The translations under genes were made by a program, and so were the position numbers. Below are positions 366-64,000 of a DNA stretch of 64,000 nt, piece after piece (within the stretch, counting starts at the first letter, position 1; each line of letters begins with the position of its first letter). Origin of the DNA: Chthoniobacterales bacterium (lineage in GTDB: Bacteria > Verrucomicrobiota > Verrucomicrobiia > Chthoniobacterales > UBA10450); assembly GCA_025929155.1 (NCBI GenBank), contig JAICMR010000002.1, forward strand, positions 3,511 through 67,510, read 5' to 3'. The notes beneath the pieces are model-generated. The model saw nothing but the letters and a program-made list of their open reading frames with translations, was not told where the DNA came from and ran no database searches.

Positions 366-521
366 GGGGAGCGGCTTCAGCGGGACCCCAACATAACGGT
401 CCGCAACGGACCATCGGCAAGCATAAAATTCGACTTTTTTCGAGGCTCGTTTTCCCTCTCGACCTAACGAAAAATCGCGCCCAAAACCCGCGGATTTCTC
501 GCCAAACAGGCTGAAGAAGTT

Positions 522-568
522 GTCGTCTCGAGCGGAGTCCCGCGCACGTCGGATGAAGTCGAAGGATC
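522..568. repeat. Diverged partial copy of the palindromic element family inside the nrdJ upstream region
   Basis: GTCGTCTCGAGCGGAGTCCCGCGCACGTCGGATGAAGTCGAAGGATC resembles GTCATCCCGAGCGAAGCG..GGAGTCGAGGGATC. Confidence 0.35.
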
Positions 569-707
569 TTGGAAAGCTGTAACTTTTGTTCACTGGATTC
601 CTCAACTCCGCTCCGTTAGCTCGACGTGACGCGCTGACGCCCACACCAGACTGCGATTCGAGGATTGCAAAAAGGACGCGCCCTTGGATAATTGCACCTT
701 TCGTAAC

Positions 708-799
708 GGAAGGGTGGCTGAGCCCGGTTTAAGGCACTCGACTCGAAATCGAACGTGGGGTAAAACTCACCGTGGGTTCGAATCCCACCCCTTCCGCCA
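708..799 (+). tRNA. tRNA-Ser (anticodon CGA), class II with long variable arm, encoded CCA
   Basis: Acceptor GGAAGGG (708-714) pairs with CCCTTCC (789-795); discriminator G; CCA 797-799. Anticodon loop CT-CGA-AA, anticodon at 744-746. Variable-arm stem GTGGG/CTCAC. T arm GTGGG-TTCGAAT-CCCAC. Confidence 0.9.
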
Positions 800-1048
800 C
801 TCCTTCCCTCGGGCCTTTTTCCTGGCGAAGTTTTTGCTCACACGTTCGGGCCCTGGCGAACTTGCGCTCGTCAGACCCTGATCTTTGGTCCTGCACTTCC
901 ACTTACACTTGCATTCTGCCGCCGGCGGAACCCGGCGCCATTTGTGTTGTGGAATTGGAGGACAACGCGGAACCTCCTAACTGCCGCAGAAGCTCTTTCT
1001 CTGAAGGCACGTCAGTAGCTGATCCTCGCGCCAGCGCGGTTGGACTCG

Positions 1049-1996
1049 TCAGGCGCTCTGCACCAGCCGGCGCACCAGATCTTCCACGGTCACGATCCCC
1101 GTGAGCTGCCGGCGCGCATCAACGACCGCGGCGAGCGTGAGCCGCGCTGCGCGCAGGCGCCGGATGATCCGGTAGGCCGATTCGTTTTCCGCCGCGGTGA
1201 CGATCCGGCGGGTGTAATCGCGGAGCGCGCGGTGTGGTCGCGGGTCGAGCAAAATGTCGAACACATTCACGAGACCAAGAGCCCGCCCATTTTCGGAAAT
1301 GACGGGGACGCGATCGACCTCCGTTTGCGCGCTGAGCCGCAGCAAATCTGGCAGCGGCGTTTCCGGACCCACCGAGACCACGTCGCGCAGCGGGCGCATC
1401 ACGTCAGCCACTTTCACGGTGCGAAAATCGACCACGTTGTGGATCATCGCGCGCTCCGCGGAAGTAAGTGATCCCTGGAGTTCGCCTTCGACCGTGAGCT
1501 GCTTCAAATCTTCGCGAGCGGCAAAGATCCGCGGCTTCGTTTCCTTGCGCGGCAGGCAAAGTCCACCGAGGCGCGCGCCGAGTTCGATGAAGGGCGAGAA
1601 AAGTCGGGACGTAAATTCGAGCAGGCCGGTGAGCGCGGCCAAGGCGCGATATGGGAAGCGGCGGAAGAGCGACTTCGGCAGCACGCCGAGCATGAAGAGG
1701 TAGATCGGGCCAGCGAGGAGGAGCGCGACCAGATAACCCCAAGCGCCTAACGAGGCCACGAGCCGCCGGGTCAGCACGAGCAGGCCCGCGATGTCGGCCA
1801 GATTCGTCACCAGCAGGATGGTGACGAGAAGCCGCTCCGGCTTTTTCAGAAGCCGATGCAGCAGCATGGCCGAGTGGTTCCGCAACTTCACCTGATGGCG
1901 CAGGCGCACCTGGTCGAGAGAGAGAAGCCCAGCCTCAATCCCGGAAAAAACGAATGAGAGCATCCAGAAAAACGCGATCAGAAACCAGGCGCTCAT
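1049..1996 (-). CDS. CNNM/DUF21 + CBS-pair transporter-like protein (HlyC/CorC family, lacks the C-terminal CorC_HlyC domain)
   Basis: 315-aa ORF. N-terminal multi-TM DUF21 pattern (FSGIEAGLLSLD...), then a CBS-pair region (VADVMRPLRDVVSV...). Its start overlaps the upstream paralog's stop by 4 nt. Confidence 0.85.
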   Translation of the reverse strand: MSAWFLIAFFWMLSFVFSGIEAGLLSLDQVRLRHQVKLRNHSAMLLHRLLKKPERLLVTILLVTNLADIAGLLVLTRRLVASLGAWGYLVALLLAGPIYLFMLGVLPKSLFRRFPYRALAALTGLLEFTSRLFSPFIELGARLGGLCLPRKETKPRIFAAREDLKQLTVEGELQGSLTSAERAMIHNVVDFRTVKVADVMRPLRDVVSVGPETPLPDLLRLSAQTEVDRVPVISENGRALGLVNVFDILLDPRPHRALRDYTRRIVTAAENESAYRIIRRLRAARLTLAAVVDARRQLTGIVTVEDLVRRLVQSA

Positions 1997-4686: not shown

Positions 4687-5402
4687 CGCGCCTCCCGTTT
4701 CCGGAGCAGCCATTCCGCGCTGAAAACGGCGCCGAACGCAATCACGACGCAGACGAGCAACAAGCGGTAAGCGGTCGCGTCGTGACCGAGCTGCACCGCT
4801 TCGTAAATCCGGAGGGAGAGCGTCTGCGTCTCGCCCGGAATATTTCCCGCGAGCAGGATCGTCGCGCCGAATTCCCCGACCGCGCGCGCGAACGCGAGCA
4901 AAACCCCTCCGCAAATCGCGCGCCCGGCCAACGGGAGCGAGATCGTCCAGAAGACGCGCCATTCACCGGCGCCAAGGGTGCGCGCCATTTGTTCGTAGCG
5001 TCGATTGACTTCTTGAAAGCCGACGCGGGCGGCGCGCACGAGGAGCGGGAACGACATCACGGCGGCAGCAATCACCACCGCCCGCCAGGTAAAAACGATG
5101 TCGAGATGGAACACGCGATGGAGCCAACCGCCTAACGAACCACGCCGCCCAAGGAGCTTGAGCAAAATGAGACCGGTCGCGACCGGCGGCATCACGAGTG
5201 GCAGCGTGACGATCGTTTCGACGACTGATTTTCCAAACCACCGCGGCCGCGCGAGAAGCCAGGCGACGCCGAGGCCGAAGGGCAGAATCAGGAGGGTACT
5301 GCCCGCGCAAGCCACGAGCGTGAACCGCACCGCCTGCCATTCGTCGGGTTGCACCGGCGAATCTTCCGCAGAGCGCGTCGTGAGCACAAGCCGTCTTCCC
5401 AT
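4683..5402 (-). CDS. modB: Molybdate ABC transporter permease
   Basis: TLPLVMPPVATGLILL, ...ARTLGAGEWRVFWTISLPLA... and FARAVGEFGATILLAGNIPGETQTLSL are the typical ModB (CysTW family) motifs. ATG at 5402-5400 preceded by GGAGCAGGAG. Confidence 0.9.
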   Translation of the reverse strand: MGRRLVLTTRSAEDSPVQPDEWQAVRFTLVACAGSTLLILPFGLGVAWLLARPRWFGKSVVETIVTLPLVMPPVATGLILLKLLGRRGSLGGWLHRVFHLDIVFTWRAVVIAAAVMSFPLLVRAARVGFQEVNRRYEQMARTLGAGEWRVFWTISLPLAGRAICGGVLLAFARAVGEFGATILLAGNIPGETQTLSLRIYEAVQLGHDATAYRLLLVCVVIAFGAVFSAEWLLRKREAR

Positions 5403-5654: not shown

Positions 5655-7835
5655 GTGACTCCAAGACCCACTCCCACCGCCAAAATTCAGCCCGCGCAAT
5701 CGGCGCACGCGAACCGGCTCATCGGCGAGAAATCGCCTTACCTTCTCCAGCACGCGCACAACCCGGTTGATTGGTATCCGTGGGGCGAGGAAGCTTTCGC
5801 CAAGGCGCGGAACGAGAATAAACCGATCTTCCTCTCGATCGGTTATTCCACCTGTCATTGGTGCCACGTCATGGAGCGCGAGGAGTTCGAAAAACCGGAC
5901 GTCGCCGCCGTGATGAACGCAGGCTTCGTGAACATCAAAGTCGATCGCGAAGAGCGTCCGGACGTCGATCGGGTTTACATGGCATTCGTCCAGGCGACCA
6001 CGGGCGGCGGCGGCTGGCCGATGAGCGTGTGGCTTACGCCAGAGCTGAAGCCGTTCGTCGGCGGCACTTATTTCCCGCCAGAAGATCGCTACGGCCAGCC
6101 CGGCTTCACCAAAGTGCTCAAGCGCATCGCGGAGGCGTGGGAAAAAGATCAGGGCAAAATCGTTGAGAGCGGCGACCAGATCGTGGCCGCCCTCGCCAAG
6201 GCCAGCGCATCCCCGCCTGACGAGACGGCCAGGCCTAACGAAAAGATTCTCACCACCGCGGCCGATCAGCTTTCGCATCAGTTCGACCAGGCCGAGGGCG
6301 GCTTCGGCGGCGCGCCGAAGTTCCCGCGGCCGGTCACGCTGAATTTCCTCTTCCACAGATCCGCGCGCGCAGGCGCCAATTCCGATGCTGGTCAGCAGGC
6401 GCTCATGATGAGCCTGTTCACGCTCCGCAAAATGGCTGCGGGCGGCATGCATGATCAGCTCGGCGGCGGTTTCCATCGGTATTCCGTGGACGCGCTCTGG
6501 CGCGTCCCGCACTTCGAGAAAATGCTTTACGACCAGGCGCAGCTCGCGAGCGCTTATGTGACGGCCTTTCAAATCACTCGCGAGCCGGCTTTTGAGAAAG
6601 TGGCCCGCGACACGCTCGATTATGTGCGCCGCGACCTGTCTTCACCCGAGGGCGGGTTTTATTCCGCCGAAGACGCCGATAGTCTGCCCAACGAAGCGTC
6701 GATCGAGAAAAAGGAAGGCGCTTTCTACGTCTGGACGAAAGAAGAGATCGACGAGGTGCTCGGCACTCCGGCGGCCGCGATTTTCAACTTTCGATACGGA
6801 GTCGAAGCGCGCGGCAACACGCCGGAAGGAAGCGATCCGCACAGTGAACTCCGGAATCAAAATGTGCTCTTCGTGCAGCATTCACTCGCGGAAACGGCGA
6901 AGCATTTCGAGCTGAACGAAGAGGAAATCGCGGAGTCGTTAGGCCAGAGCTCAATGCAGCTTCTCGCGATCCGCCAAAAACGGCCGCGTCCGCATCTCGA
7001 CGACAAGATCATCACCGCATGGAACGGCCTGATGATTTCCGCTTACGCGCGCGCCGCGCAGGTCTTCGGCGATGGTCAGTTCCTGACCGCGGCCACGAAA
7101 GCGGCCGGGTTTCTCAGGCAGAAACTTTATCGTGAGTCCGAGCAGACGCTGCTGCGCAGCTATCGCGGCGGGCCGGCGGAGATTCTGGGCTTCGCGGATG
7201 ATTATGCGTTCTACATCCAGAGTCTGATCGATCTCTATGAGGCGTCGTTCGACGTGCAATGGCTTCGGCTGGCCGAGCAATTGCAGGCGACGCAGGACCG
7301 GCTTTTCTGGGATGAAACGAACGGCGGCTATTTCACCAGCACGGGGAAGGACGCGAGCATTTTGCTGCGGATGAAGGAGGATAACGACAACGCCGAACCC
7401 GCTCCGAGTTCGGTCGCGGCGCTCAATCTCTTCCGGCTCGCGCAGATCCGCAACGCGCCGGAAATGCGCGAGCGCGCCGAGGAAACGATCGCGGCTTTCG
7501 GGAGAGCTTTGCAGCACTACCCGACGGCGCTTCCGCAACTGCTCGTCGCCTTGGATTTTGGCCTAACGAAACCACGACAGATCATCATCGCCGGCCGAAG
7601 CGATGGCGCCGACACGCGCGCGCTCCTTGCGGAAGTGCGCCAGCACTACCTCCCCGACACGATCGTGCTCTTGGCGGACGGCTCGGAAGGCCAGCAGTAT
7701 CTCCAGGAAAAGCTCGAAGAGATTCGCGAGATGAAGCCGGGCGCAGGAAAAGCCGCAGCGTATGTCTGCGAGAATTTCACCTGCCACTCGCCGGTCACAT
7801 CGCCGGAAGAATTAGCCAAGTTGCTCCCAAAATAG
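5655..7835 (+). CDS. Thioredoxin-domain protein of the DUF255/YyaL (COG1331) family
   Basis: 726-aa ORF: [45 protein letters not shown], then a long alpha/alpha-toroid-like C-terminal part. Confidence 0.9.
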
Positions 7836-8056: not shown

Positions 8057-8785
8057 TCAGGCCCCATTTCCAGTCACTCGTTCGACCGGTGGCGGCGTTG
8101 CCGGCCGCCGCCGCTTCAGCCGCATCCAGTTATTCCAGGTTTTTCGCATGGTGTCCTTCGGTGTCAGGTATTGCTGGTTAAGTTCGTTGTTTTTCACGAT
8201 TTGGGCCAAAATTCCGCCTAACGAGAAGTCTTCGGTGTTCAAAATCGTGTAGGCCGTTCCGATCGCCGAGTGATGATGCGAATCGCTCCCCGCAGTCATC
8301 GGCAGGCCGCGCATCTGGGCATACTTGAAGGCGTAGCTGTTGTAGCGCCGTAAAGTGGTCGCCGCGTTGAAGACTTCGAGCGCGTCGATCGACAGGTTTT
8401 GCAAAGTCGAAAACCGAATTCCGGCCCGGAACAAATCATAGGGATGCGGCGGAATCGCCAGCCCGCCGCGCTCGTGAATCAGCTCGCAAACCTCTCGCGC
8501 CGGTCGCCCTTTCAGATACGGCAGCGATGCACCGATCGAGAGCAAGTGGCCTTCCGCGGTCGTGACCTCGACCCCAGGAATGATGAGGAACCCATCCACC
8601 GGCTCCCCATCCTCGCGGATCAGGCCTTTGGCGCGCAGATAATCGACGCCGTCGTTCGTGTTGTGATCGGTCAGCGCAAAACCATCGAGGCCCTTGGCGC
8701 GCGCCGACGCGATGTTTTCTTCCGGACTGGAAACGCCGTCGCCGGAAAAGAACGAGTGCGTGTGCAGGTCGATCTTGAAGGGCAT
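8057..8785 (-). CDS. PHP-domain metal-dependent phosphoesterase
   Basis: MPFKIDLHTHSFFSGDG...GLDGFALTDHNT...GSDSHH: the typical PHP His/Asp motifs. Confidence 0.85.
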   Translation of the reverse strand: MPFKIDLHTHSFFSGDGVSSPEENIASARAKGLDGFALTDHNTNDGVDYLRAKGLIREDGEPVDGFLIIPGVEVTTAEGHLLSIGASLPYLKGRPAREVCELIHERGGLAIPPHPYDLFRAGIRFSTLQNLSIDALEVFNAATTLRRYNSYAFKYAQMRGLPMTAGSDSHHHSAIGTAYTILNTEDFSLGGILAQIVKNNELNQQYLTPKDTMRKTWNNWMRLKRRRPATPPPVERVTGNGA

Positions 8786-14274: not shown

Positions 14275-14311
14275 CGAAAGCTGCTCGATAAGATTAAAAG
14301 TACGACGCCCC

Positions 14312-22159: not shown

Positions 22160-22164
22160 CGACG

Positions 22165-52498: not shown

Positions 52499-52670
52499 GG
52501 CCGCTCGGCGCAGCCGGTGCCCTTTTCTCCATCCAATTGAATCGCGGTTTGCCGCGAAGCGCCGAATGAGATTTAGCCTAACGAGCGAACTTTTTCACGC
52601 GTCAACAGCGAAATTGCTTGCGTCCGGCAGGCGCACAGCATGTAGTGTCAGGCTGGTTCTCGGCCACATC

Positions 52671-55978: not shown

Positions 55979-56589
55979 GCGTCTTCGTCACCGGCACGGA
56001 CACGGGCGTCGGGAAGACGGCGTTTAGTTGCTGGCTGCTCGAGCGATTGCGGGAGCAAGGTGTCAGCTGCGCCGGCTACAAACCGATCTGCTGCGGGGAT
56101 CGCGAGGACGCCCGGCGTCTGCTCGCCGCCGGCAGCACTGGCCTAACGATCGAGGAAGTTAATCCGATCTGGCTGAAATTGCCGGCCGCGCCACTCACCG
56201 CGGCGCTTGCGGAAAGGCGGGAGCTCGACCTCGTCGCGCTTCGCGGCGGATTCGTCAGGCTGAGCCAGGAGGTGGAATTCGTGGTCGTGGAAGGCGTCGG
56301 CGGCTGGATCGTGCCAATCACCGAGAGCTATTTCTCGAGCGATCTCGCGACTGACTTGCAGTTGCCTGTGCTCATCGTCGTACACAATCGGCTCGGTTGT
56401 TTGAATCACACCTTCCTCACGGTGCGCAACGTCGAAGCTGCCGGCTTGCGCTGCCTCGGCGTCGTCCTGAATGATTTCGGCGAATCGGACGAGGTCGCAA
56501 CGAAAACCAACGCCGATATTCTGCGGCGCTGTCTCTCGATTCCGGTTGTGGAAGGCTTCCAGCCCGAGTTGCTCTCCCGGTTGCGATGA
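55975..56589 (+). CDS. bioD: Dethiobiotin synthase-like P-loop protein
   Basis: GTG start: [19 protein letters not shown]...AGYKPI..G...VVVEGVGGW. 4-nt overlaps on both sides. Confidence 0.75.
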
Positions 56590-58016
56590 AATCAAAGCGC
56601 AAGACGATCGCGGTGCTCGGCGGCGGTTCAGCGGGATTCACCGCGGCGCGGACGGCCTGCAAACGCGGGGCAAATGTTCTGTTCTTCATGGGCGACAACG
56701 CCGATCACGCGTCGCTCTGCATCAACGCCGGCTGCATGCCGTCGAAGGCGCTCTTCGAGCCGATCGACGCCGCGCATCATGCCAAACAACACGGCTGGTT
56801 TCGGGTCGAACCGAAACAGCCTAACGAACTCCTGGCGCAGATCGTTCGGTGGAAGGATGTCGAGATCGAGAAGTTTCGCGTTCATCGGCAGGAAGAAATC
56901 CGCGCGTTGGCCGGCGACTGCTTCAAGATGATCCGCGCGAACGCGCGTTTCACCGGAATGCACGAGGTCGAAAGCCAAGGCCGGCGGTACGAATTCGACG
57001 CGGCGATTGTGGCGACGGGGTCGGCCACCACTTTTCCGGAGCTCACCGGTCTCCATGCAGTCCGCGATGCGGTCTGGACGAGTGATGAAATCCTTCACAA
57101 CACGGAGATCCCGCGCTCCGTTGCCGTGATCGGCGCAGGCCCGATCGGGTTGGAATTTTCGCTGCGCTACGCTCGGCTCGGCTGCGAGGTCACGCTGCTC
57201 ACGACGCGGGAATTGCTCCCGCATTACCCGGCGAAATTTGGCGAGCGAATGGCGGTGATTTACGAGCAGGAAGGGGTTCGTCTGCTAAAGGGCCGCTTAG
57301 TCGCGCGACTACGGCGCGACGAGGCGGGCGCGTTCGAGATCGAGACAGAGGGCGCGGGAAGTTTGCCGCTCCTTCGGGCGGAACGCCTGCTGCTCGCGAC
57401 CGGCCGCCATCCCGCCGTTGACCAACTGAATCTAAGCGCGGCTGGAATTTCGCCTAACGAGAAAGGTGAACTTGAAGTCGCCGAAGACATGCGCGTGCGC
57501 GGGTCCGAGCACATCTTCGCGGCCGGCGACGTGGCGGGGTTACGAATGGTGGTGCACCACGCGCATATCGAAGCCGAGATCGCGGCCGAGAACGCCTGCA
57601 GCGAAGGCGATCGGCGTTGGACGAAGCGGTCGAACATTCAGGTCGTCTTTTCGGATCCTGAATTTGCCTTCGCCGGAATGAGATATCCGGCTGCCGAAAG
57701 CGCGGGTCACAGGCTTGTCACGGCGAGCGCCGAAAGTCGTGATATCGGCAAACTGCACCTCGCTGGAGATGATTTCGGAATCGGTGAATTCGCGGCCGAC
57801 GCGCAGAGCGGGAAGTTGATCAGCGCCGGTTTGCTCTGCAGCGACGCGAGTAATCTGATTCACCTGCCGGCCTACGCGATCGATCACGAGCACACCGTCC
57901 AACAACTCGGCAACGCGGAGTATTTTCACCCGACGAAAATCGAAATCATCAGCGAAATCGGCGACGAACTTTGCCGCAAAGTCGGCGGCCAGCCGTTTGC
58001 GCGCGCGGAGGAATAG
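56586..58016 (+). CDS. Class I pyridine nucleotide-disulfide oxidoreductase (dihydrolipoyl dehydrogenase/mercuric-reductase-like)
   Basis: IAVLGGGSAGFTAA (FAD), redox-active CINAGCMPSK, VIGAGPIGLEF (NAD), AAGDVAG, C-terminal dimerisation region HPT..E. Confidence 0.85.
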   Translation: MKSKRKTIAVLGGGSAGFTAARTACKRGANVLFFMGDNADHASLCINAGCMPSKALFEPIDAAHHAKQHGWFRVEPKQPNELLAQIVRWKDVEIEKFRVHRQEEIRALAGDCFKMIRANARFTGMHEVESQGRRYEFDAAIVATGSATTFPELTGLHAVRDAVWTSDEILHNTEIPRSVAVIGAGPIGLEFSLRYARLGCEVTLLTTRELLPHYPAKFGERMAVIYEQEGVRLLKGRLVARLRRDEAGAFEIETEGAGSLPLLRAERLLLATGRHPAVDQLNLSAAGISPNEKGELEVAEDMRVRGSEHIFAAGDVAGLRMVVHHAHIEAEIAAENACSEGDRRWTKRSNIQVVFSDPEFAFAGMRYPAAESAGHRLVTASAESRDIGKLHLAGDDFGIGEFAADAQSGKLISAGLLCSDASNLIHLPAYAIDHEHTVQQLGNAEYFHPTKIEIISEIGDELCRKVGGQPFARAEE

Positions 58017-58047: not shown

Positions 58048-59241
58048 TCAAAAGCGAACCGTAAATTGCGTTGCGAAGAAACTGCTCGTCCGCTCGGAGA
58101 CGAAATCGCCGCCGATGAGGCTGTATTGGATTTTCCACTGCGTGTGCGCGGAAAAGCGGTAACCCAGGGCGACTTCGGCGCGCCAGATGTCATGCGCTTT
58201 GGCCACGGAGTCGCGCTCGTTCTGGAACATCTGCTGGTTCCAGCGTAATGCCCCGAAAAGTTGCGGCGTGATCTGGTATTTCGTTTCGACGTAGTAGGCG
58301 AAAACATCGGCGTCGCCCACTCGCGGCACCTCGAAGCGTGACTCGATCACTTCCAGCCAGATCTGCCAATGGCCGCGCGCATAGCTGATGTCCTGGCCGA
58401 GGACGAACTGCCGGTAATCGTCAATCCCCCCCTCGTCATGCGGGAGCGGCGCTTCCGCGTTGAGGTAGGGGCCTTCGCCGGCCGAAAGTCCAAAATGCCA
58501 CGCCTCGTTAGGCTGGAGGCCGAAGCGGAGATCGGTCGCGGGGCGGCTGAAATCATATTCATCCCAAGTCTCGGGGCGCGAGGAGACCGGCGCGTTTTTC
58601 ACTTCCGCAGCGTATTGAAACATTCCCAACTCGCCGGAAACAGAGATGCCTTGTGCGTAAGATGGGCCCCAGACCACGGGCAGGAATTCATATTTTTCCG
58701 AACCGGGAACTGCGCGAAAGCTCTGGCCGGTGAGCGGCAGTTGCCAGTCCGAGACCAGAGTTGCCGTCTCGTAAGGGAGCGGCGCGTTCACGAACGGGTT
58801 GTCCCACGACAAATGCCGCTCCACCCAGGCGCCGAAGATGGTGGCGAATCGCCCGACCTGCACGTTGAAGCGGCCGTCGCTCCACGGCGTGATGCGGAGC
58901 GCGAATTCATCCAGCCGTAGTTGCGCGCCGAGGTCGCTCGGGTCGAAACCGGTGTCGACCCGGGACTGCGCAAAAAAGTAAACATGCGGCCCGAGCTGCG
59001 CGTCGAGGAATGCCGTTAGGCGCGGAGCAAACAGGTCGTGTCCATCGGCACGGATCAGGCCGGGCGGCGGCTGCGCGAAATGGTAATACTCGAGGTCGAG
59101 CAGGCCGCTGAGCCGGGCACGGGCCTGATCGTGATAACTGCTGATCGTCAGGCTCTCGTCGATCCGGTCGATCAAATCCTGCGCGGCGAGGAAGGGAGCC
59201 GATGCCAGCCAAAGACCGAAAGAGAGGAGCAACGCTTTCAT
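58048..59241 (-). CDS. Putative outer-membrane beta-barrel protein
   Basis: Signal peptide MKALLLSFGLWLASAPFLAAQ, alternating aromatic/hydrophilic strands, C-terminal ...ATQFTVRF (terminal Phe). 4-nt overlap with the upstream kinase gene. Confidence 0.55.
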   Translation of the reverse strand: MKALLLSFGLWLASAPFLAAQDLIDRIDESLTISSYHDQARARLSGLLDLEYYHFAQPPPGLIRADGHDLFAPRLTAFLDAQLGPHVYFFAQSRVDTGFDPSDLGAQLRLDEFALRITPWSDGRFNVQVGRFATIFGAWVERHLSWDNPFVNAPLPYETATLVSDWQLPLTGQSFRAVPGSEKYEFLPVVWGPSYAQGISVSGELGMFQYAAEVKNAPVSSRPETWDEYDFSRPATDLRFGLQPNEAWHFGLSAGEGPYLNAEAPLPHDEGGIDDYRQFVLGQDISYARGHWQIWLEVIESRFEVPRVGDADVFAYYVETKYQITPQLFGALRWNQQMFQNERDSVAKAHDIWRAEVALGYRFSAHTQWKIQYSLIGGDFVSERTSSFFATQFTVRF

Positions 59242-60995
59242 CTGACTACCTCTTCTGCTTTCGCCAGACCAAAAACCGCCAGAAACTCGGTCCAGGCCGC
59301 GTCCGAGCGGACGAGACTCAGCTCGCCACCGTGCAGTCGCAGAAGCTCGCGTGCGAGGTTCAAGCCAAGACCGTGGCCAGCGACCTCTTCTGCCCCGCCG
59401 CGCTGGAAGCGCTCAAAAATTTCTGGCTGCACTGCGATTGGTATTCCGGGCCCGGTGTTCGCCACGCGCAGCTCTACCGAAGCATCGCGAGCCCGCCCGG
59501 TGATGCGGATGGTGCCATCGCGGTAGTTATATTTCTGCGCGTTCTCGAGAAGATTTTGCACAACCAGACCGGTATATTTTCGGTCGCCCGCGATCCACAA
59601 GCATTCCGGGAGATCGCTCTCGACTTTGAGGTCGCTGCTTTCGGGCAGCGCGCAAATATCCTCCACCCACTCCGCAACGAGGTGCGCGAGATCGACTTTG
59701 TGCAGGTTGAGCCGGAGCTTGCCGGCATCCATCCGCGAGAGCAGGAGGAGGTCTTCGACCACACCCGTGAGCCGATAAGTCTGGTGAATGAGCGACGAGA
59801 TTTCCTCGTAGCTGTCCGTTGGGAGCCCCTCCCGCGCGAGGAGTGAATCCAAGCCGGCCCGGAGGACCGTAATTGGACTTTTGAGCTGGTGAGAAGCATC
59901 AGCGGAGAAGCGAGCCGAGCGTTGCAACTCCGCGTTCGTCGTGACCAGTTTCGCTTCCGCCTCCCGCGCCTGCGCCCGGTTTTTTTCTGACGCGACAGCC
60001 AGGGTCTCCACGGGTTGGGAGAGTCGGTGCGAAAGCAGATGACTAGCCAAAAAACCCACGAGCAGCAGGATGGCGCCGGCGCCGAGAAACTGCGTGCGCA
60101 AGTGTCGCTGACGCGCGCGCAACTGCGTCAGCGGATAAAGGCAGACTTCGTAAGCCGGCGGATATTGCGACTGCGGATTGAGCCGCTTGAAGAAGAGCAG
60201 ATGCGGTGTTCCGGCGATCGCGAGACTGAAACTTCTGGGCTGACCCGCGCCGTGATTGGTAATTTTTGCCACCTCCTGCGCGATTCGCTGACCCGTCGCG
60301 GCATCGAACCCGGAGAGCTGAAGTTTGTTCTGAACCAGAATGCCGCTCATCATTCCAGCGCCGCTGCGGTGCCCGGCCGTCTCGACCGGCGGAAAGCCGA
60401 GGACGAGCGCCGAAATCACTTCACCGGTTTCGGTTGATTGAATCGGGACCGCGATCATTTCATCAACCGTCGTGCCGATCCGCTCGTCCTCGCGCAGGAG
60501 ATAACCGGTCTGCATCCTGGGCGACAGGCTCGGCTGCGCAAGCTGCTTCTGCTCGTTAGGCAAAAGCTGGCCGGCGTCGTCGGTCGGCGGGGGGATTACG
60601 GCGCCATGGCCATCGAGGAAACGGTAAAAGCGCGCGTGCAGAGCGTCGGCCCCGCCCTCGTCGCGCATCAAATCGCGCAGCTCTTCCTGCGCGTTCGGAT
60701 AGAGCAGGTCGAGGGCGTTATCTTCCAGTGCTGCGTGAATCCGGGCATTGCGCGCGAGCGCGGTCGAGCGATCCGCGACGGCGGCGTTGCGCAGATCTTG
60801 GAGACGATGCAGCGCAGCCAGCTCGAGTTGGAAATCTCGCCGTAAATCTTCCTGCACATCCCTGGCCGCGCGATGTTGCGCCACGTAGAGACCTAACAAC
60901 GTCAGCGCGGACACCACCAGCATCATGGCCACGAACAATCGCAGGCGGAAACCGCGCGGAGTGACCGCGGGCGGCTCTGCGACGGCCGGCCTCAC
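59238..60995 (-). CDS. Sensor histidine kinase (two TM, large periplasmic domain, HisKA + HATPase_c)
   Basis: H-box RFSADASHQLKSPITVLRAGL, N-box LLENAQKYN, G-boxes ANTGPGI and GHGLGLNLAREL. Confidence 0.85.
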   Translation of the reverse strand: MRPAVAEPPAVTPRGFRLRLFVAMMLVVSALTLLGLYVAQHRAARDVQEDLRRDFQLELAALHRLQDLRNAAVADRSTALARNARIHAALEDNALDLLYPNAQEELRDLMRDEGGADALHARFYRFLDGHGAVIPPPTDDAGQLLPNEQKQLAQPSLSPRMQTGYLLREDERIGTTVDEMIAVPIQSTETGEVISALVLGFPPVETAGHRSGAGMMSGILVQNKLQLSGFDAATGQRIAQEVAKITNHGAGQPRSFSLAIAGTPHLLFFKRLNPQSQYPPAYEVCLYPLTQLRARQRHLRTQFLGAGAILLLVGFLASHLLSHRLSQPVETLAVASEKNRAQAREAEAKLVTTNAELQRSARFSADASHQLKSPITVLRAGLDSLLAREGLPTDSYEEISSLIHQTYRLTGVVEDLLLLSRMDAGKLRLNLHKVDLAHLVAEWVEDICALPESSDLKVESDLPECLWIAGDRKYTGLVVQNLLENAQKYNYRDGTIRITGRARDASVELRVANTGPGIPIAVQPEIFERFQRGGAEEVAGHGLGLNLARELLRLHGGELSLVRSDAAWTEFLAVFGLAKAEEVVR

Positions 60996-61636
60996 GGCAG
61001 ATCAACGTGCAAGGTTGCGCCGCGCTTTAGATCGACCGGCCGTTCCCGCGTCGTCCGGCTGTCGATCCAGGCCCTGAGCACGAAATGCCCCGCCGGCAGA
61101 TTCGTCAGGCGATATTTTCCTTCCGTATCGGTGACCGTGAAATAGGGCGTGTCGAGCACGAGAATCAGACCACGCATGTGCTCGTGAATGTCACAACGGA
61201 GCGTGACCAGGCCGGGTTTGTCGAAAACCTGAAACGGCGCCGGTTCTTCTCCAGGCGGATAACGGCCGAGGTCGAAGCGTTTCGCCGGAGAGAAGGAAAA
61301 AATGTTGTGATAGGTGTCGTCGTGATTCGGAAAAGTTACCTTGGTTCCAACCTCGATCGCGAGGAGCGGCGGAACGAAGGCGTAATCCTTTTGCGCGACC
61401 TGTTTCGTCGGGAGCGCGCCCGGCTTCGAAAAATCCCCCGCCAGATAAACCACGGCGCGAGGCGGATCCGTCGCGAGCACGCCGGCTTTGCTCACGATCT
61501 CGTAGCGCGCGGTCAAAATCGGGGCCGAGTGAGCTTTCGGGAGCGCGACTTTTCCTTCCAGCGTGGCCTGTGCCAGACAGCTCAACGGCAGGAAGGCTGC
61601 AAGCGCCAGGGCGAGGCGAAAAAATTTGCAGTGCAT
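60992..61636 (-). CDS. Secreted cupredoxin-like + carboxypeptidase-regulatory-like domain protein
   Basis: Start re-set to the ATG at 61636 (MHCKFFRLALALAAFLPLSCLAQA). VTFPNHDDTYHN and LRCDIHEHMRG resemble type-1 copper ligands (His...Cys-x2-His-x2-Met). C-terminal TDTEGKYRLTNLPAGHFVLRAW. Confidence 0.6.
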   Translation of the reverse strand: MHCKFFRLALALAAFLPLSCLAQATLEGKVALPKAHSAPILTARYEIVSKAGVLATDPPRAVVYLAGDFSKPGALPTKQVAQKDYAFVPPLLAIEVGTKVTFPNHDDTYHNIFSFSPAKRFDLGRYPPGEEPAPFQVFDKPGLVTLRCDIHEHMRGLILVLDTPYFTVTDTEGKYRLTNLPAGHFVLRAWIDSRTTRERPVDLKRGATLHVDLP

Positions 61637-61862
61637 CGCGACGAGCCGGTTAGCAGGTTCAGCCGGGGAGGCATACGATGTAGTGGACATGGACCGGGCG
61701 CAATCTCGGCAGCGAGTATTTACCGAGGCCTCGTAAAGAAGCAGGCGACGAAAAGTAACAGGCTCGTAACTTTTCGCTGGTCGCCGCACTCTAGCGGTCG
61801 AGGAAGACTATCTGCCAGCCGGGCTTTCGCTTTTCTACTTCAATCTTCTTTCCGCTCCGTTC

Positions 61863-62528
61863 ATGCACATTCTCGTCGTCGAAGATGAAGTCCGCCTTGC
61901 GCGCCACATCTCTCGAGCCCTTACCACCGCTGGCCACGACGCCATCGTGGTGCATGAGGGCGAGGTTGGCCTGCGCGAGGCGCAACGAACCGACTTCGAC
62001 CTGATCATTCTCGACATCATGCTTCCAGGGATCGACGGCTTCGAGGTGCTGAAGCAGTTGCGCAAATCGCGCGTCGACAGCCGCGTTCTCATTCTCACCG
62101 CACGTGGTGAGTTGACCGACCGCGTGAGCGGCCTCGGCCTTGGGGCGGATGATTATCTCGCAAAACCTTTTGCGATGCAGGAACTCGTCGCGCGGGTGGG
62201 CGCGCTCGGGCGGCGTTATGCGGAAAAGCCGGCAGTTAAATTGCAGGTCGCCGATCTCACGCTCGATCTGACGGAGAATCAGCTCCATCGCGGGGAGCGC
62301 GGGATTGAGCTGTCGGCGCGGGAGCTGACCCTCTTGCGCGTTCTCATGCGCGAGCCTGGCCGCATCTTTAGCCGCACAGAACTCTGCGAACGAGTCTGGG
62401 AGCGCGAGCACGAATACGACATGAAACTGGTGGAGGTCTTTATCAGCCGGCTGCGCAAGAAAATCGGCGATCCTCCGCTCATCCAGACGGTCCGACACCT
62501 CGGCTACTGCATTCGCGAGGCGACGTGA
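61863..62528 (+). CDS. OmpR/PhoB-family response regulator
   Basis: MHILVVEDE...DLIILDIMLPGIDG...LTARG...ADDYLAKPF, plus a winged-helix C-terminus (LTLLRVLM...VFISRLRKKI). Confidence 0.9.
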   Translation: MHILVVEDEVRLARHISRALTTAGHDAIVVHEGEVGLREAQRTDFDLIILDIMLPGIDGFEVLKQLRKSRVDSRVLILTARGELTDRVSGLGLGADDYLAKPFAMQELVARVGALGRRYAEKPAVKLQVADLTLDLTENQLHRGERGIELSARELTLLRVLMREPGRIFSRTELCERVWEREHEYDMKLVEVFISRLRKKIGDPPLIQTVRHLGYCIREAT

Positions 62529-63883
62529 GGAATTGGCCACTGCGCTGGAAACTGGCGCTCTATTCCGCTCTCCTGGCCGTCGCCGCCACCGTCGGTGGCG
62601 CCGCCACGACCTGGATGGTGATGCGTCACCGCGAGATCGCCGCCTTCGATCGCCGCTTAACGATGGATGCCGACGAGCTGTTCCGCGATGTCGAACATTT
62701 CAAGCGCGATCCGATGGCGCGGCGCGGGGGGTTCCAAGAGAGTTTCGTGCCGCTCGCATTGCGGAACCGTCTTGTTCAGGTGACTGACGGGAACGGCCAT
62801 ACGCTCTATCGTTCCGCCGCTTTGCCTGAGCCGATTCCGCCCGACGGGATCGGCAAAATTCACACGCGCAATCTCAAAGGGCGGAGTATTCGAATCGGCG
62901 AGTTCACTCGCGATGGACTTACCTTGCGCGTCGGCGCGGATCTGTGGGAGATCGACCAGGTCGGGCGCGATATCCTCCTGGGCATGCTCGCCGCCATTCC
63001 GACAGTGCTAGTGCTCATCGTTGTCGGCGGGCGCTGGGTTGCGAGCAAGGCGGTCGCGCCAGTCGAAGAGATTCGCCAGGCGGCTATCAAGATCACGGCG
63101 CACCGGCCCGACCAGCGGCTGCCGGTTCCCAACACTCGAGATGAGATTGCCGGTCTGGTCGAGGTCTTGAATGCAGCATTCGAGCGGTTGCAGCGGAGCC
63201 TGGAGCAATCGGTGCGGTTCTCCGCCGATGCATCTCACCACCTCAAAACGCCCATCTCTGTGCTCCGGGCTGGCGCCGAAGAAATCATTGCCGACCACGA
63301 ATGTAACAACCGAACTCGGGCGACAGCCGAAGGATTGCTGCAGCGGATCCACCAGCTCAATGCGGTCGTGGATAACCTCCTCCTGCTCGCCCGCGCCGAT
63401 GCGGGCCGGCTGGTCTTGCACCGTTCCAATTTCGATCTGAGCGAGCTGCTCGAGGGAATACTGGACGACGCCCGGGCCCTGGCGGAGCCATTCCATCTCG
63501 CAGTAGAAGCCGATGTGCCGAAACATCTTCCGCTCCGCGCCGATCGCGGCTTCGTCGGCACGATTGCGCAAAATCTGCTCGAGAATGCAGTGATGTATAA
63601 CACCCCAGGCGGTCGCATCCGCGTTGCCGCCCACGCGGTCAACGGCTGCGTTGAGCTGACGGTTGGCAACACTGGCGCAGGTGTTCCATCCGACCTCGCG
63701 CCGCATCTCTTCGAACGCTTTTACCGCGCCCGCGGCGATGAACGTGTCACCGGCAACGGGCTCGGCCTCAGCACTTCGCAGGAGCTGGCGCGCGCGCACG
63801 GCGGCGATATTACCCTCGTCCGCTCGGACGCGGATTGGACGGAGCTGCAAGTGCGGTTGTGCTCAGAGCCCGCTGCGAATTGA
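62525..63883 (+). CDS. Sensor histidine kinase (CusS/heavy-metal-sensor-like)
   Basis: GTG start overlapping the regulator gene stop. H-box RFSADASHHLKTPISVLRAGA, N-box LLENAVMYN, GNTGAGV, GNGLGLSTSQEL. Confidence 0.85.
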   Translation: MRNWPLRWKLALYSALLAVAATVGGAATTWMVMRHREIAAFDRRLTMDADELFRDVEHFKRDPMARRGGFQESFVPLALRNRLVQVTDGNGHTLYRSAALPEPIPPDGIGKIHTRNLKGRSIRIGEFTRDGLTLRVGADLWEIDQVGRDILLGMLAAIPTVLVLIVVGGRWVASKAVAPVEEIRQAAIKITAHRPDQRLPVPNTRDEIAGLVEVLNAAFERLQRSLEQSVRFSADASHHLKTPISVLRAGAEEIIADHECNNRTRATAEGLLQRIHQLNAVVDNLLLLARADAGRLVLHRSNFDLSELLEGILDDARALAEPFHLAVEADVPKHLPLRADRGFVGTIAQNLLENAVMYNTPGGRIRVAAHAVNGCVELTVGNTGAGVPSDLAPHLFERFYRARGDERVTGNGLGLSTSQELARAHGGDITLVRSDADWTELQVRLCSEPAAN

Positions 63884-64000
63884 GTCACTACTGGCGCACT
63901 CCGGTCGGCGCCCCAGATGAACCAACGACAACGTCCTCCTCTCTTGGGGAGATCCAACTTCTGGCCCGGCGGTCACCGTGCTTCAAACTGCCTAACGAAC

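What the first reader, a model, noticed from the sequence alone, without database searches (positions are those of the whole stretch)
463..63998. Hyper-abundant, chromosome-strand-biased word (G)CCTAACGA: about 1 per kb, 3:1 on the + strand, independent of gene orientation and reading frame
My hand scan found exact CCTAACGA on the + strand starting at 463, 1746, 4670, 5131, 6234, 7562, 8217, 12132, 14270, 14651, 16118, 18586, 20183, 20512, 22155, 22371, 22467, 22804, 23211, 24130, 27577, 29085, 31366, 33380, 33590, 34039, 34496, 36397, 38345, 40126, 40661, 42276, 44562, 47010, 48113, 48286, 49237, 49372, 49677, 50089, 50959, 51064, 51337, 51453, 52454, 52577, 55257, 56142, 56820, 57453 and 63991 (51 copies). 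The complement TCGTTAGG starts at 2603, 4163, 6936, 13021, 23587, 25472, 32189, 33068, 34902, 36831, 38094, 45345, 47766, 55382, 55949, 58505 and 60553 (17 copies). Since 4^8 = 65,536, a random 8-mer is expected about once per strand; assuming about 60% GC gives roughly 0.8. 59 of the 68 copies are preceded by G, giving the 9-mer GCCTAACGA, and there are at least 15 further one-mismatch copies. The word sits inside CDSs of both orientations and in every frame that tolerates it. In the sense orientation it reads P-N-(D/E) or L-T, and antisense it reads S-L-G or V-R. The stop-containing sense frame (cc-TAA-cga) is used only where a stop is needed. In + strand genes I count 23 forward and 7 reverse copies; in - strand genes 20 forward and 10 reverse; 8 forward copies are intergenic. 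The bias therefore follows the DNA strand, not transcription or a peptide motif, which argues for selection at the DNA level. Known motif classes with such behaviour include DNA uptake sequences (Neisseria DUS, Pasteurellaceae USS, about 1 per kb) and Chi sites (strongly co-oriented with the leading strand). FtsK-orienting KOPS/AIMS and cyanobacterial HIP1 behave similarly. The density here resembles DUS/USS and the 75:25 skew resembles Chi/KOPS. I do not recognise this word as a described motif.
Basis: partly seen in the sequence, partly recalled or inferred. Interest (0 to 1): 0.9.

Follow-up and report, generated by a model that had tools for sequence, protein, structure and literature searches.

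The report
Hyper-abundant 9-mer in soil Verrucomicrobia
An uncultured soil bacterium and its close relatives carry the 9-letter DNA word GCCTAACGA about once per 1,000 bases, roughly 120 times more often than chance, and actively preserve it, much like the 'DNA uptake sequences' known from only two other bacterial families; the 3:1 strand bias that drew attention is real here but is not a general property of the word.

Summary
CCTAACGA occurs 68 times (51 +, 17 −) against 0.83 expected. 59 copies read GCCTAACGA, flanks are unrelated, and all four stop-free frames are used in genes of both orientations. A synonymous-codon shuffle predicts 2.3 copies in genes; 57 are seen.

The window comes from a soil Chthoniobacterales (Verrucomicrobiota) MAG. 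The word is dense (0.6–1.8 per kb) only in one clade (PepF ≥81% identical). It is about 10× enriched in sister clades and absent beyond them. A sister clade carries a different word, AAGATCGACA, at about 1 per kb. Copies sit at orthologous positions across genomes only 70–84% identical (62 of 121 conserved, 13.7 expected).

The over-representation profile (120× / 2.5× / ~0) matches published uptake sequences and HIP1, not Chi (5.7×).

The 3:1 strand bias is significant in the window (p = 4.5e-5). Relatives are about 1:1 overall, although one syntenic block shares the bias. The bias does not track GC skew, AT skew or gene orientation.

Best reading: a DUS/USS-like self-DNA tag maintained through transformation or recombination. 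This is inferred, not shown. The Chi/KOPS reading is not supported. No paper in the searched library describes either word.

The parts
463..470 (+). M1 copy (ACCTAACGA), intergenic upstream of tRNA-Ser
1746..1753 (+). M1 copy, antisense (S-L-G) in − gene 1049-1996; conserved in L032, L033
2603..2610 (-). M1 copy, sense (P-N-E) in − gene 1993-3282; conserved in L032, L033
4163..4170 (-). M1 copy, sense (P-N-E) in − gene 4033-4686; conserved in L030, L031, L033
4670..4677 (+). M1 copy, antisense (S-L-G) in − gene 4033-4686
5131..5138 (+). M1 copy, antisense (S-L-G) in − gene 4683-5405
6234..6241 (+). M1 copy, sense (P-N-E) in + gene 5655-7835
6936..6943 (-). M1 copy, antisense (S-L-G) in + gene 5655-7835; conserved in L030-L033
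7562..7569 (+). M1 copy, sense (L-T) in + gene 5655-7835
8217..8224 (+). M1 copy, antisense (S-L-G) in − gene 8057-8785; conserved in L030-L033
12132..12139 (+). M1 copy, antisense (S-L-G) in pepF (11357-13174 −); conserved in most clade members
13021..13028 (-). M1 copy, sense (L-T) in pepF; conserved in most clade members
14270..14277 (+). M1 copy whose TAA is the stop codon of + gene 13258-14274
14651..14658 (+). M1 copy, intergenic (convergent genes)
16118..16125 (+). M1 copy, antisense (S-L-G) in − MFS gene 14803-16464; shared with L031
18586..18593 (+). M1 copy, intergenic (convergent genes)
20183..20190 (+). M1 copy, antisense (V-R) in − gene 19733-20491
20512..20519 (+). M1 copy, antisense (S-L-G) in − ORF 20484-21041
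22155..22162 (+). M1 copy whose TAA is the stop codon of + gene 21026-22159
22371..22378 (+). M1 copy, sense (L-T) in + sulfotransferase gene 22165-22896
22467..22474 (+). M1 copy, sense (L-T) in + gene 22165-22896
22804..22811 (+). M1 copy, sense (P-N-D) in + gene 22165-22896
23211..23218 (+). M1 copy, sense (P-N-E) in + gene 22986-23897
23587..23594 (-). M1 copy, antisense (V-R) in + gene 22986-23897
24130..24137 (+). M1 copy, sense (P-N-E) in PilB/GspE-like gene 24121-25824
25472..25479 (-). M1 copy, antisense (V-R) in PilB/GspE-like gene 24121-25824
27577..27584 (+). M1 copy, intergenic just after second PilB/GspE-like gene
29085..29092 (+). M1 copy, intergenic between PilC/GspF-like and pilin-like genes
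31366..31373 (+). M1 copy (CCCTAACGA), antisense (V-R) in − gene 30985-31752
32189..32196 (-). M1 copy, sense (L-T) in − gene 31746-32246
33068..33075 (-). M1 copy, sense (L-T) in − dapB 32481-33161
33380..33387 (+). M1 copy, antisense (V-R) in − dapA 33158-34036
33590..33597 (+). M1 copy, antisense (V-R) in − dapA 33158-34036
34039..34046 (+). M1 copy, intergenic
34496..34503 (+). M1 copy, antisense (S-L-G) in − gene 34180-35001
34902..34909 (-). M1 copy (TCCTAACGA), sense (L-T) in − gene 34180-35001
36397..36404 (+). M1 copy, sense (L-T) in + ORF 35981-36661
36831..36838 (-). M1 copy, antisense (V-R) in + gene 36743-37402
38094..38101 (-). M1 copy, sense (L-T) in − gene 37603-38841; shared with metagenome locus L214
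38345..38352 (+). M1 copy, antisense (S-L-G) in − gene 37603-38841; shared with L214
40126..40133 (+). M1 copy, intergenic
40661..40668 (+). M1 copy, antisense (S-L-G) in − gene 40234-41397
42266..42273 (+).
44562..44569 (+). M1 copy, antisense (S-L-G) in − gene 42455-46153; shared with L232
45345..45352 (-). M1 copy, sense (P-N-D) in − gene 42455-46153; shared with L232
47010..47017 (+). M1 copy, sense (P-N-E) in + gene 46128-47201; shared with L232
47766..47773 (-). M1 copy, antisense (V-R) in + gene 47198-48319
48113..48120 (+). M1 copy, sense (P-N-D) in + gene 47198-48319
48286..48293 (+). M1 copy, sense (L-T) in + gene 47198-48319
49237..49244 (+). M1 copy, antisense (S-L-G) in − TPR-CHAT gene 48306-50939; shared with L233
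49372..49379 (+). M1 copy, antisense (S-L-G) in TPR-CHAT gene; shared with L232
49677..49684 (+). M1 copy, antisense (V-R) in TPR-CHAT gene; shared with L232, L233
50089..50096 (+). M1 copy, antisense (S-L-G) in TPR-CHAT gene
50959..50966 (+). M1 copy (CCCTAACGA), intergenic; shared with L233
51064..51071 (+). M1 copy, sense (P-N-D) in + ORF 50998-51498; shared with L233
51337..51344 (+). M1 copy, sense (P-N-D) in + ORF 50998-51498
51453..51460 (+). M1 copy, sense (L-T) in + ORF 50998-51498
52454..52461 (+). M1 copy, sense (P-N-D) in + gene 52253-52498
52577..52584 (+). M1 copy, sense (L-T) in + gene 52491-53180
55257..55264 (+). M1 copy, sense (P-N-E) in + gene 55020-55271
55382..55389 (-). 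M1 copy, antisense (S-L-G) in + gene 55268-55978
55949..55956 (-). M1 copy, antisense (S-L-G) in + gene 55268-55978
56142..56149 (+). M1 copy, sense (L-T) in + gene 55975-56589
56820..56827 (+). M1 copy, sense (P-N-E) in + gene 56586-58016
57453..57460 (+). M1 copy, sense (P-N-E) in + gene 56586-58016
58505..58512 (-). M1 copy, sense (P-N-E) in − gene 58048-59241
60553..60560 (-). M1 copy, sense (P-N-E) in − histidine-kinase gene 59238-60995
63991..63998 (+). M1 copy, intergenic at window end
24121..29674 (+). Context only, link to the word not shown: type IV pilus / type II secretion core (two PilB/GspE ATPases, PilC/GspF platform, N-methyl pilin-like protein). This is the kind of machine that takes up DNA in competent bacteria.

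Best explanation
GCCTAACGA ('M1') is a lineage-specific genomic self-tag of the DUS/USS type. I infer that some component of natural transformation in this Chthoniobacterales clade binds the 9-bp word preferentially. The most likely component is a surface DNA receptor on a type IV pilus; a less likely one is an early intracellular processing or recombination factor. DNA fragments carrying the word would then be taken up and recombined more often than fragments without it. That biased transmission (molecular drive, possibly reinforced by selection for conspecific exchange) would convert near-matches to perfect copies and protect existing copies from decay. The process would continue until the word sits about once per kb on both strands, in every reading frame that tolerates it, even where it forces rare codons. 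Sister lineages with a different specificity would accumulate a different word (AAGATCGACA). Shown: hyper-abundance, DNA-level origin, sharp definition, positional maintenance, clade restriction, and a second word in a sister clade. Inferred: that the maintaining process is transformation or uptake. The window's 3:1 strand bias is a secondary, regional feature of unknown cause and is not part of the core mechanism.
For: (1) Magnitude and shape. There are 59 perfect 9-mers against 0.5 expected in the window, and 191 against 1.5 in 202 kb of clade loci. Representation is 120× / 2.5× / −0.2 at 0 / 1 / 2 mismatches. PMC1939737 Table 6 gives 145 / 10 / 1.1 for an uptake sequence, 1129 / 10 / 1.3 for HIP1 and only 5.7 / 1.5 / 0.6 for Chi. 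(2) DNA-level drive. A synonymous shuffle predicts 2.3 copies in genes against 57 seen, and 18–25% of all CTA, TTA and AGG codons lie in the word. All four stop-free frames are used, with sense 30 against antisense 27. (3) It is a free word. Flanks are unrelated and the logo from 388 copies has only weak Y at −4/−3 and R at +1. (4) Active maintenance. Window copies are perfectly conserved in 62 of 121 site-by-genome comparisons, against 13.7 expected from all 9-mers in the same alignments. L031 gives 10/10 at 77% identity, L236 gives 11/12, and sister clades give 0/16. Where a genome lacks a copy it usually has a one-off variant. (5) Clade-restricted with a second word. M1 is dense only where PepF is ≥81% identical, is 10× enriched in sister clades, and has 0 copies in 183 kb of more distant relatives. 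AAGATCGACA occurs at about 1 per kb, 7:9, in L042 and L087, with orthologous copies. (6) Across the clade both orientations are about equal, as PMC1939737 reports for DUS/USS. (7) No IMG/VR viral contig found with the two-copy seed carries the word at 1 per kb (28 hits, roughly the number I estimate from chance). (8) A T4P/T2SS core is encoded in the window.
Against: There is no functional evidence. The organisms are uncultured, and competence genes (comEA, comEC, dprA, pilQ) were not examined. The T4P/T2SS genes are common and not specific to competence. The window's 51:17 bias (p = 4.5e-5), the shared 33:10 bias in one syntenic block, and the mild clustering of orientation in relatives (z = −2.3) are not expected for classical uptake sequences, which show no orientation bias (PMC1939737). 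One-off variants are less enriched (2.5×) than in DUS/USS (about 10×). There are no phased AT-rich flanks as in USS and no inverted-pair terminators as in Neisseria. Two clade members (L034, L036) have few copies, and the data could not show whether that is decay.
Confidence: 0.45

Rival explanations
1. A HIP1-like word. M1 would be the recognition site of an intracellular DNA-binding, modification or repair system, such as an orphan methyltransferase with biased very-short-patch-type repair, or a nucleoid or recombination factor. That system would create and preserve copies without any role in DNA uptake.
For: The abundance, frame independence and positional conservation are of the kind described for cyanobacterial HIP1 (abstracts of PMC5861425 and PMC4390886, seen). 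The over-representation profile is of the same order (against PMC1939737). The second word AAGATCGACA contains GATC and TCGA, which are typical methylation cores. An intracellular, strand-aware process could more easily give regional orientation bias.
Against: M1 is non-palindromic, fully specified over 9 bp and contains no palindromic sub-site, which to my knowledge is unusual for methyltransferase or repair targets. No candidate enzyme was identified. HIP1 itself is now being linked to transformation (bioRxiv 10.1101/2024.09.10.611283), so this rival may collapse into the main explanation.
Confidence: 0.27
2. A replication-oriented signal (Chi for RecBCD/AddAB, or a KOPS/AIMS-type FtsK-orienting word). 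Its strand bias would follow the leading strand and would be scrambled in relatives by rearrangements.
For: The bias is 51:17 in every 8-kb bin of the window, irrespective of gene orientation. The same bias appears in the block syntenic to 46–52.5 kb in four relatives (33:10). On a 1.45-Mb contig the pepF and CHAT blocks lie 670 kb apart on opposite strands, and each keeps its bias relative to the block. That is what an ori/ter-symmetric inversion would preserve.
Against: Relatives with equal or higher density are about 1:1 over 20-kb loci (20:20, 13:15, 16:19, 13:12, 14:17). In 44 random metagenome loci, copies are not co-oriented with a direct seed pair (73:101). There is no long-range orientation correlation in relatives. 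There is no correlation with GC skew, AT skew, GC3/AT3 skew or gene orientation. The 120× over-representation and 1–2 copies per kb are far above Chi. Shared bias in a block is equally explained by inheritance of the same sites.
Confidence: 0.1
3. A by-product with no DNA-level function: a favoured peptide or codon context, a mutational hotspot, or remnants of a mobile element.
For: Only four peptide contexts occur (P-N-D/E, L-T, S-L-G, V-R), and a few copies cluster within single genes.
Against: The synonymous shuffle predicts 2.3 copies against 57 seen. The word uses the rarest Leu and Arg codons. Copies occur on both strands of genes and in intergenic DNA. Flanks are unrelated. Copies are conserved far above background only in M1-bearing genomes.
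Confidence: 0.03

Closest known systems
DNA uptake sequences: Neisseriaceae DUS (GCCGTCTGAA and dialects) and Pasteurellaceae USS (AAGTGCGGT / ACAAGCGGT)
   Same: A short non-palindromic word of 9–10 bp at about 1 per kb and more than 100× over expectation. There is a sharp drop from perfect to one-off copies. It occurs in coding and non-coding DNA in all permissive frames. Both orientations are roughly equal across the clade. It is lineage-restricted, with a different word in a sister lineage, comparable to DUS dialects or the Hin/Apl USS types. Benchmarks are from PMC1939737; my measurements are.
   Different: The sequence is unrelated and the phylum is different (Verrucomicrobiota, uncultured soil Chthoniobacterales). 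Uptake specificity, receptor and competence are all untested. This window has a 3:1 regional strand bias. One-off enrichment is weaker (2.5× against about 10×). There are no phased AT flanks (USS) and no inverted-pair terminators (DUS).
HIP1 (GCGATCGC), the highly iterated palindrome of cyanobacteria
   Same: A hyper-abundant 8–10-mer at up to about 1 per kb, found in all frames, reported as under selection and evolutionarily conserved, and phylogenetically restricted (abstracts of PMC5861425 and 10.64898/2026.06.24.733823). Its function was long unknown and it is now tentatively tied to natural transformation and HGT (bioRxiv 10.1101/2024.09.10.611283 and 10.64898/2026.06.24.733823).
   Different: HIP1 is a palindrome embedding methyltransferase sites (GATC, CGATCG). 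M1 is non-palindromic with no such sub-site. HIP1 is reported to be quasi-periodic, whereas M1 spacing is about exponential.
Chi (E. coli GCTGGTGG) and KOPS/AIMS skewed octamers
   Same: A fully specified non-palindromic 8–9-mer.
   Different: Chi is only about 5.7× over-represented (PMC1939737), whereas M1 is 120×. Chi and KOPS are defined by their polarity relative to replication. M1 is about 1:1 in relatives and in random loci and does not track compositional skews.

Membership tests
DNA uptake sequence (DUS/USS class) | Short non-palindromic word, hundreds to thousands of copies per genome (about 1 per kb), over 100× above expectation | tested here: met
   68 copies in 64 kb against 0.83 expected. 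120× in the window and 123× in 202 kb of clade loci.
DNA uptake sequence (DUS/USS class) | Steep mismatch-load profile: perfect far above one-off, one-off above background | tested here: met
   120× / 2.5× / −0.2, against 145 / 10 / 1.1 in PMC1939737. The shape is the same, with weaker one-off enrichment.
DNA uptake sequence (DUS/USS class) | [quoted passage not shown] | tested here: inconclusive
   The window is 51:17 (p = 4.5e-5) and one syntenic block is 33:10 in relatives. Relatives are about 1:1 over whole loci and metagenome loci give 73 co against 101 anti.
DNA uptake sequence (DUS/USS class) | Lineage-specific word, with related lineages carrying variant or different words | tested here: met
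   Dense only in one clade and absent below 70% PepF identity. AAGATCGACA occurs in a sister clade.
DNA uptake sequence (DUS/USS class) | Competent cells preferentially bind or take up DNA carrying the word | not testable with these tools
DNA uptake sequence (DUS/USS class) | Genome encodes a transformation apparatus (T4P, ComEA, ComEC, DprA) and a sequence-specific receptor (ComP-like minor pilin) | tested here: inconclusive
   The window encodes two PilB/GspE ATPases, PilC/GspF and a pilin-like protein.
Chi site | Strong co-orientation with replication (leading strand), flipping at ori/ter | tested here: inconclusive
   The flip test is impossible with loci of 22 kb or less. The indirect tests are negative: no general bias, no link to skews, and orientation runs flip within about 10 kb in relatives.
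Chi site | Moderate over-representation (a few-fold) | tested here: not met
   120× here against 5.7× for E. coli Chi (PMC1939737).
Chi site | Recognition by RecBCD/AddAB with attenuation of degradation | not testable with these tools
   This needs biochemistry.
KOPS / AIMS | Very high skew (over 80–90%) on the leading strand in all members of the lineage, rising towards dif | tested here: not met
   75% in the window. About 50–56% in relatives at the same loci.
HIP1-type highly iterated palindrome | Palindromic word embedding methyltransferase recognition sites | tested here: not met
   GCCTAACGA is not its own reverse complement and has no palindromic core. This is read directly from the sequence.
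HIP1-type highly iterated palindrome | Hyper-abundance with positional conservation above background | tested here: met
   62 of 121 conserved against 13.7 expected.
Mobile short repeat (REP / MITE / BIME) | Copies embedded in longer conserved, usually intergenic, units | tested here: not met
   Flanks are unrelated over ±30 bp in 388 copies. 57 of 68 copies are inside genes.

The most novel reading that the evidence does not exclude
Uncultured Chthoniobacterales ('Ca. Udaeobacter'-related soil Verrucomicrobia) would practise sequence-specific natural transformation, using clade-specific uptake words (GCCTAACGA in one clade, AAGATCGACA in another). As far as I know this would be the first uptake-sequence system outside Neisseriaceae and Pasteurellaceae, and the first outside that phylum. 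In at least some lineages the word's orientation would also be coupled to a chromosome-scale process, for example replication-strand-dependent integration of the imported single strand, giving uptake sequences a polarity never reported for DUS/USS.
Probability: 0.3. Interest if true: 0.85.

Novelty: new variant of a known kind. Interest (0 to 1): 0.68.

Why it matters
The papers read here treat sequence-specific DNA uptake as a feature of two proteobacterial families, Neisseriaceae and Pasteurellaceae (PMC7811141, PMC1939737). A word with the same genomic footprint has now turned up in soil Verrucomicrobia that have never been cultured. Sister clades carry a different word. This would imply that self-preferring gene exchange is more widespread than assumed and operates in soil. 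It also gives a concrete handle. The words are known, so candidate receptors (minor pilins, ComEA) can be sought by phylogenetic profiling across M1-bearing, M2-bearing and word-free genomes. Binding can then be tested in vitro without culturing the organism. Practically, the words are also sharp taxonomic markers for binning and for detecting foreign DNA in these MAGs.

Tried and rejected
(1) Mobile repeat: rejected, because flanks are unrelated.

(2) Codon or peptide artefact: rejected by the synonymous shuffle.

(3) General replication-type asymmetry of the window. The GC3-skew difference between + and − genes is 0.000±0.017, and the AT3 difference is only 0.035±0.017. After masking M1, only CGCGCGCCG is significantly skewed.

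(4) AT skew as a replication compass. It looked promising in three large samples, but there is no correlation over 51 segments, so I rejected it.

(5) CGCGCGCCG as a compass in metagenome loci: there are too few copies.

(6) Decay of M1 in the M1-poor clade members L034 and L036: the alignments are too short, so this is inconclusive.

(7) Phage carriage. The two-copy seed in IMG/VR gave 28 hits. That is about the number I estimate from chance for a collection of that size (my own estimate, not a tool output). None of the hits is dense.

(8) Inverted-pair or terminator geometry and regular spacing: neither is present.

(9) Exact look-up of the window's own proteins, to obtain more of the same genome: not on record. 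The identical JGI contig has no retrievable DNA.

(10) Literature searches for either word or for uptake sequences in Verrucomicrobia or Udaeobacter returned only primer noise.

Full report

Yes. Exact CCTAACGA occurs 68 times in 64 kb, 51 on the + strand and 17 on the − strand. All listed coordinates are correct apart from one typo (42276 should be 42266). Dinucleotide-preserving shuffles give a mean of 0.83 and never more than 4.

- 59 copies are preceded by G, so the core is the 9-mer GCCTAACGA (45:14).
- Flanks are unrelated. A logo from 388 copies pooled over the window and related loci shows only weak pyrimidine preference at −4/−3 and purine at +1. There are no phased AT tracts. This is a free word, not a mobile repeat.
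- Spacing is close to exponential, with a deficit of very short gaps and no excess of inverted pairs.

| Location | Forward | Reverse |
|---|---|---|
| + genes | 20 | 7 |
| TAA serves as the stop codon of a + gene | 2 | 0 |
| − genes | 20 | 10 |
| Intergenic | 9 | 0 |

All four stop-free frames are used: sense P-N-D/E 17, sense L-T 13, antisense S-L-G 17, antisense V-R 10.

A codon-aware null is decisive. Shuffling synonymous codons within each gene gives 2.33±1.42 copies (maximum 6 in 200 shuffles) against 57 observed. The word accounts for 13 of 51 CTA, 17 of 79 TTA and 10 of 55 AGG codons, which are the rarest Leu and Arg codons of this 61% GC genome. The word is therefore imposed at the DNA level.

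**2. Where does the window come from?**

The PepF protein encoded at 11357-13174 (−) has 100%-identical entries on 69.5-kb (NCBI) and 72.8-kb (JGI) contigs. It also has hundreds of 82–92% relatives annotated as Chthoniobacterales, Spartobacteria or Verrucomicrobiota MAGs from soil.

**3. Phylogenetic distribution.**

I counted the word in those loci and placed them on a PepF tree. M1 is dense in only one clade:

| Locus | Copies per kb |
|---|---|
| window | 1.06 |
| L030 | 1.22 |
| L031 | 1.83 |
| L033 | 1.16 |
| L035 | 1.28 |
| L032 | 0.78 |
| L078 | 0.64 |

- Two members of that clade are poor in M1: L034, the 3.58-Mb contig (0.18 per kb), and L036 (0.33 per kb).
- Sister clades at 73–80% PepF identity keep a residual 10-fold enrichment: 16 copies against 1.4 expected in 181 kb.
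- More distant Chthoniobacterales have none in 183 kb.
- The planctomycete and other distant loci hold at most a single copy each.

A sister clade (L042, L087, and more weakly L043 and L048) carries a different hyper-abundant free word, AAGATCGACA. It occurs at about 1 per kb, on both strands (7:9 and 3:6), about 1000× over expectation, and several copies sit at orthologous positions. The window has none.

**4. Are copies maintained?**

I mapped window copies through pairwise alignments. They are perfectly conserved in 62 of 121 site-by-genome comparisons. Only 13.7 would be expected from the fraction of all 9-mers that are identical in the same alignments.

- L031 conserves 10 of 10 at 77.5% overall identity.
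- L236 conserves 11 of 12 at 79.5%.
- In the sister clades that lack the word the figure is 0 of 16.

Where one genome lacks a copy that others have, it usually holds a one-off variant such as GCCCAACGA, GTCTAACGA, GCCTGACGA or GCCTAAGGA. That is the pattern of a word continuously created and protected in the lineages that use it.

**5. The strand bias.**

In the window the bias is significant (binomial p = 4.5e-5). It is present in every 8-kb bin and is independent of gene orientation. It is not a general property of the word.

- Relatives at the pepF locus give 20:20, 13:15, 6:8, 8:6, 5:9, 6:9 and 14:17.
- Relatives at the locus of the TPR-CHAT gene (window 48306-50939) give 3:5, 9:16, 16:19 and 13:12.
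- All these loci are reversed relative to the window. Turned into window orientation, they sum to about 56% forward. Many of those sites are shared by descent, so the counts are not independent.
- An independent sample came from the one metagenome scan, seeded with a direct pair of copies. In 44 free-word loci the other copies were co-oriented with the seed pair only 73 times against 101. A general 3:1 bias predicts about 70% co-oriented.

The picture is not purely random, however.

- Inside the block syntenic to window 46–52.5 kb, four relatives share the window's bias: 11:1, 9:3, 8:3 and 5:3, which sums to 33:10 (my reading of the site lists).
- Orientation in relatives shows mildly fewer runs than expected (100 against 116.4, z = −2.3). 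There is no long-range correlation.
- Compared with the union of sites in its relatives, the window holds 21 of 34 forward sites but 7 of 21 reverse sites (Fisher p = 0.054).
- On one 1.45-Mb contig the pepF and CHAT blocks are 670 kb apart and on opposite strands, whereas in the window they are 37 kb apart on the same strand. Each block keeps its bias. This fits both simple inheritance and an ori/ter-symmetric inversion.

I found no compositional compass. GC3 skew shows no strand effect and AT3 only a marginal one. Over 51 segments, M1 bias correlates with neither GC skew, AT skew nor gene orientation. The window's bias is therefore real, regional, partly inherited and unexplained. The proposed ori/ter flip test could not be run, because only loci of 22 kb or less can be fetched.

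**6. What is it most like?**

The mismatch-load profile for M1 is 120× / 2.5× / about 0. PMC1939737 tabulates the following benchmarks:

| Word | 0 mismatches | 1 mismatch | 2 mismatches |
|---|---|---|---|
| M1 (this window) | 119× | 2.7× | −0.15 |
| A. pleuropneumoniae uptake sequence | 145× | 10× | 1.1× |
| HIP1 10-mer | 1129× | 10× | 1.3× |
| E. coli Chi | 5.7× | 1.5× | 0.6× |

[quoted passage not shown] M1 matches the uptake-sequence class on these points:

- abundance and sharpness of definition;
- independence of reading frame;
- equal use of both strands at clade level;
- clade restriction, with a different word in a sister clade.

It differs in three ways. The window has a regional strand bias, one-off enrichment is weaker, and there are no USS-type flanks or DUS-type terminator pairs. 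HIP1 is the other close analogue. It is palindromic and methylation-linked, and recent preprints connect it to natural transformation (10.1101/2024.09.10.611283 and 10.64898/2026.06.24.733823).

The window encodes a type IV pilus / type II secretion core: two PilB/GspE ATPases, PilC/GspF and a pilin-like protein. This is compatible with DNA uptake but not specific to it. The two-copy seed found 28 IMG/VR viral contigs. That is about the number I estimate from chance for a collection of that size, and none carries the word at 1 per kb.

**7. Mechanism and confidence.**

The best-supported explanation (confidence about 0.45) is a DUS/USS-like self-tag. A component of natural transformation would prefer DNA carrying GCCTAACGA. 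Motif-bearing alleles would then be over-transmitted by recombination and accumulate to about 1 per kb. What is shown is the footprint of such a drive. The link to uptake is inference.

- A HIP1-like intracellular recognition, modification or repair explanation is the main rival (about 0.27).
- A Chi/KOPS-type replication-oriented signal is unlikely as the core function (about 0.1), although a replication-linked modulation of orientation is not excluded.
- A neutral codon, peptide or mobile-element origin is effectively refuted (about 0.03).

**8. Novelty.**

Searches of the paper library found no description of either word, nor of uptake sequences or competence in Verrucomicrobia or Udaeobacter. 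I rate it as a new variant of a known kind: hyper-abundant genomic words of the DUS/USS/HIP1 type, in a new phylum, with an unrelated sequence and an unusual regional polarity. The decisive work is whole-genome polarity plots, competence-gene and pilin profiling across M1-bearing, M2-bearing and word-free genomes, methylomes, and binding or uptake assays.

Noticed in passing
L042 (UBA10877 Spartobacteria MAG, 14.7 kb), L087, L043, L048; 0 copies in the window: A second, unrelated hyper-abundant free word, AAGATCGACA, in a sister clade. L042 has 16 copies (7:9) and L087 has 9 (3:6), about 1000× over expectation. Flanks are unrelated and several copies are at orthologous positions (for example L042:7746 ≈ L048:12145 and L042:9342 ≈ L087:3354). 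It contains GATC and TCGA.
   Followed up: partly
window, 22 sites (for example 1572, 7048, 8698, 12388, 13445, 16008, 21431, 25057, 28629 ... 53108): CGCGCGCCG is a free GC-rich 9-mer with a strong strand skew of 19(+):3(−), p = 8.6e-4. It is the only word besides M1 to survive multiple testing. In the aligned pepF block all 14 union sites in the window and relatives are '+', of which 7 are not shared with the window. In the 41–52 kb block the orientation is mixed. It is a better candidate than M1 for a genuinely strand-oriented (AIMS/KOPS/Chi-like) word.
   Followed up: partly
window 24121-29674 (+): A type IV pilus / type II secretion core with two tandem PilB/GspE-family ATPases (567 and 560 aa), a PilC/GspF platform protein and a 193-aa N-methyl pilin-like protein. 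M1 copies sit exactly in the two short spacers (27577, 29085).
   Followed up: partly
window, GCCTGACGA / TCGTCAGGC sites: The one-off variant GCCTGACGA (synonymous with M1 in the L-T frame, CTG against CTA) is skewed the opposite way to M1: 2 forward and 10 reverse. At several orthologous positions it replaces M1 in one genome or another. It may be the main precursor or decay state.
   Followed up: no
L029/L034 1-8000 (3.58-Mb contig CBDCJE010000002.1, positions ~2.51 Mb): In the M1-poor member of the dense clade, pepF is flanked by an apparent restriction-modification/defence island (Eco57I-family protein, ResIII-like helicase, DUF4747 and unannotated ORFs). This island is absent from the window and the other relatives.
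   Followed up: no
L234 and L236 (ERZ25039552 contig_29679, 1.45 Mb: 1100747-1123359 and 427632-449431): Synteny is heavily scrambled within this clade. The pepF block and the TPR-CHAT block are 37 kb apart on the same strand in the window, but 670 kb apart on opposite strands in this relative. Neighbours of pepF differ between most genomes at a scale of about 10 kb.
   Followed up: partly
window 48306-50939 (−): A fast-evolving 877-aa TPR + CHAT-domain protein. After the identical entry the best homologue is only 71% identical, then 62%, whereas PepF relatives are 87–92% identical. It carries four M1 copies, all in antisense frames.
   Followed up: no
IMG/VR loci L014, L015, L020, L011, L005: A few 'viral' contigs have 3–4 M1 copies in 3–14 kb (0.3–1 per kb), above chance. 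They could be prophage-flanking host DNA or phages of M1-bearing hosts.
   Followed up: no
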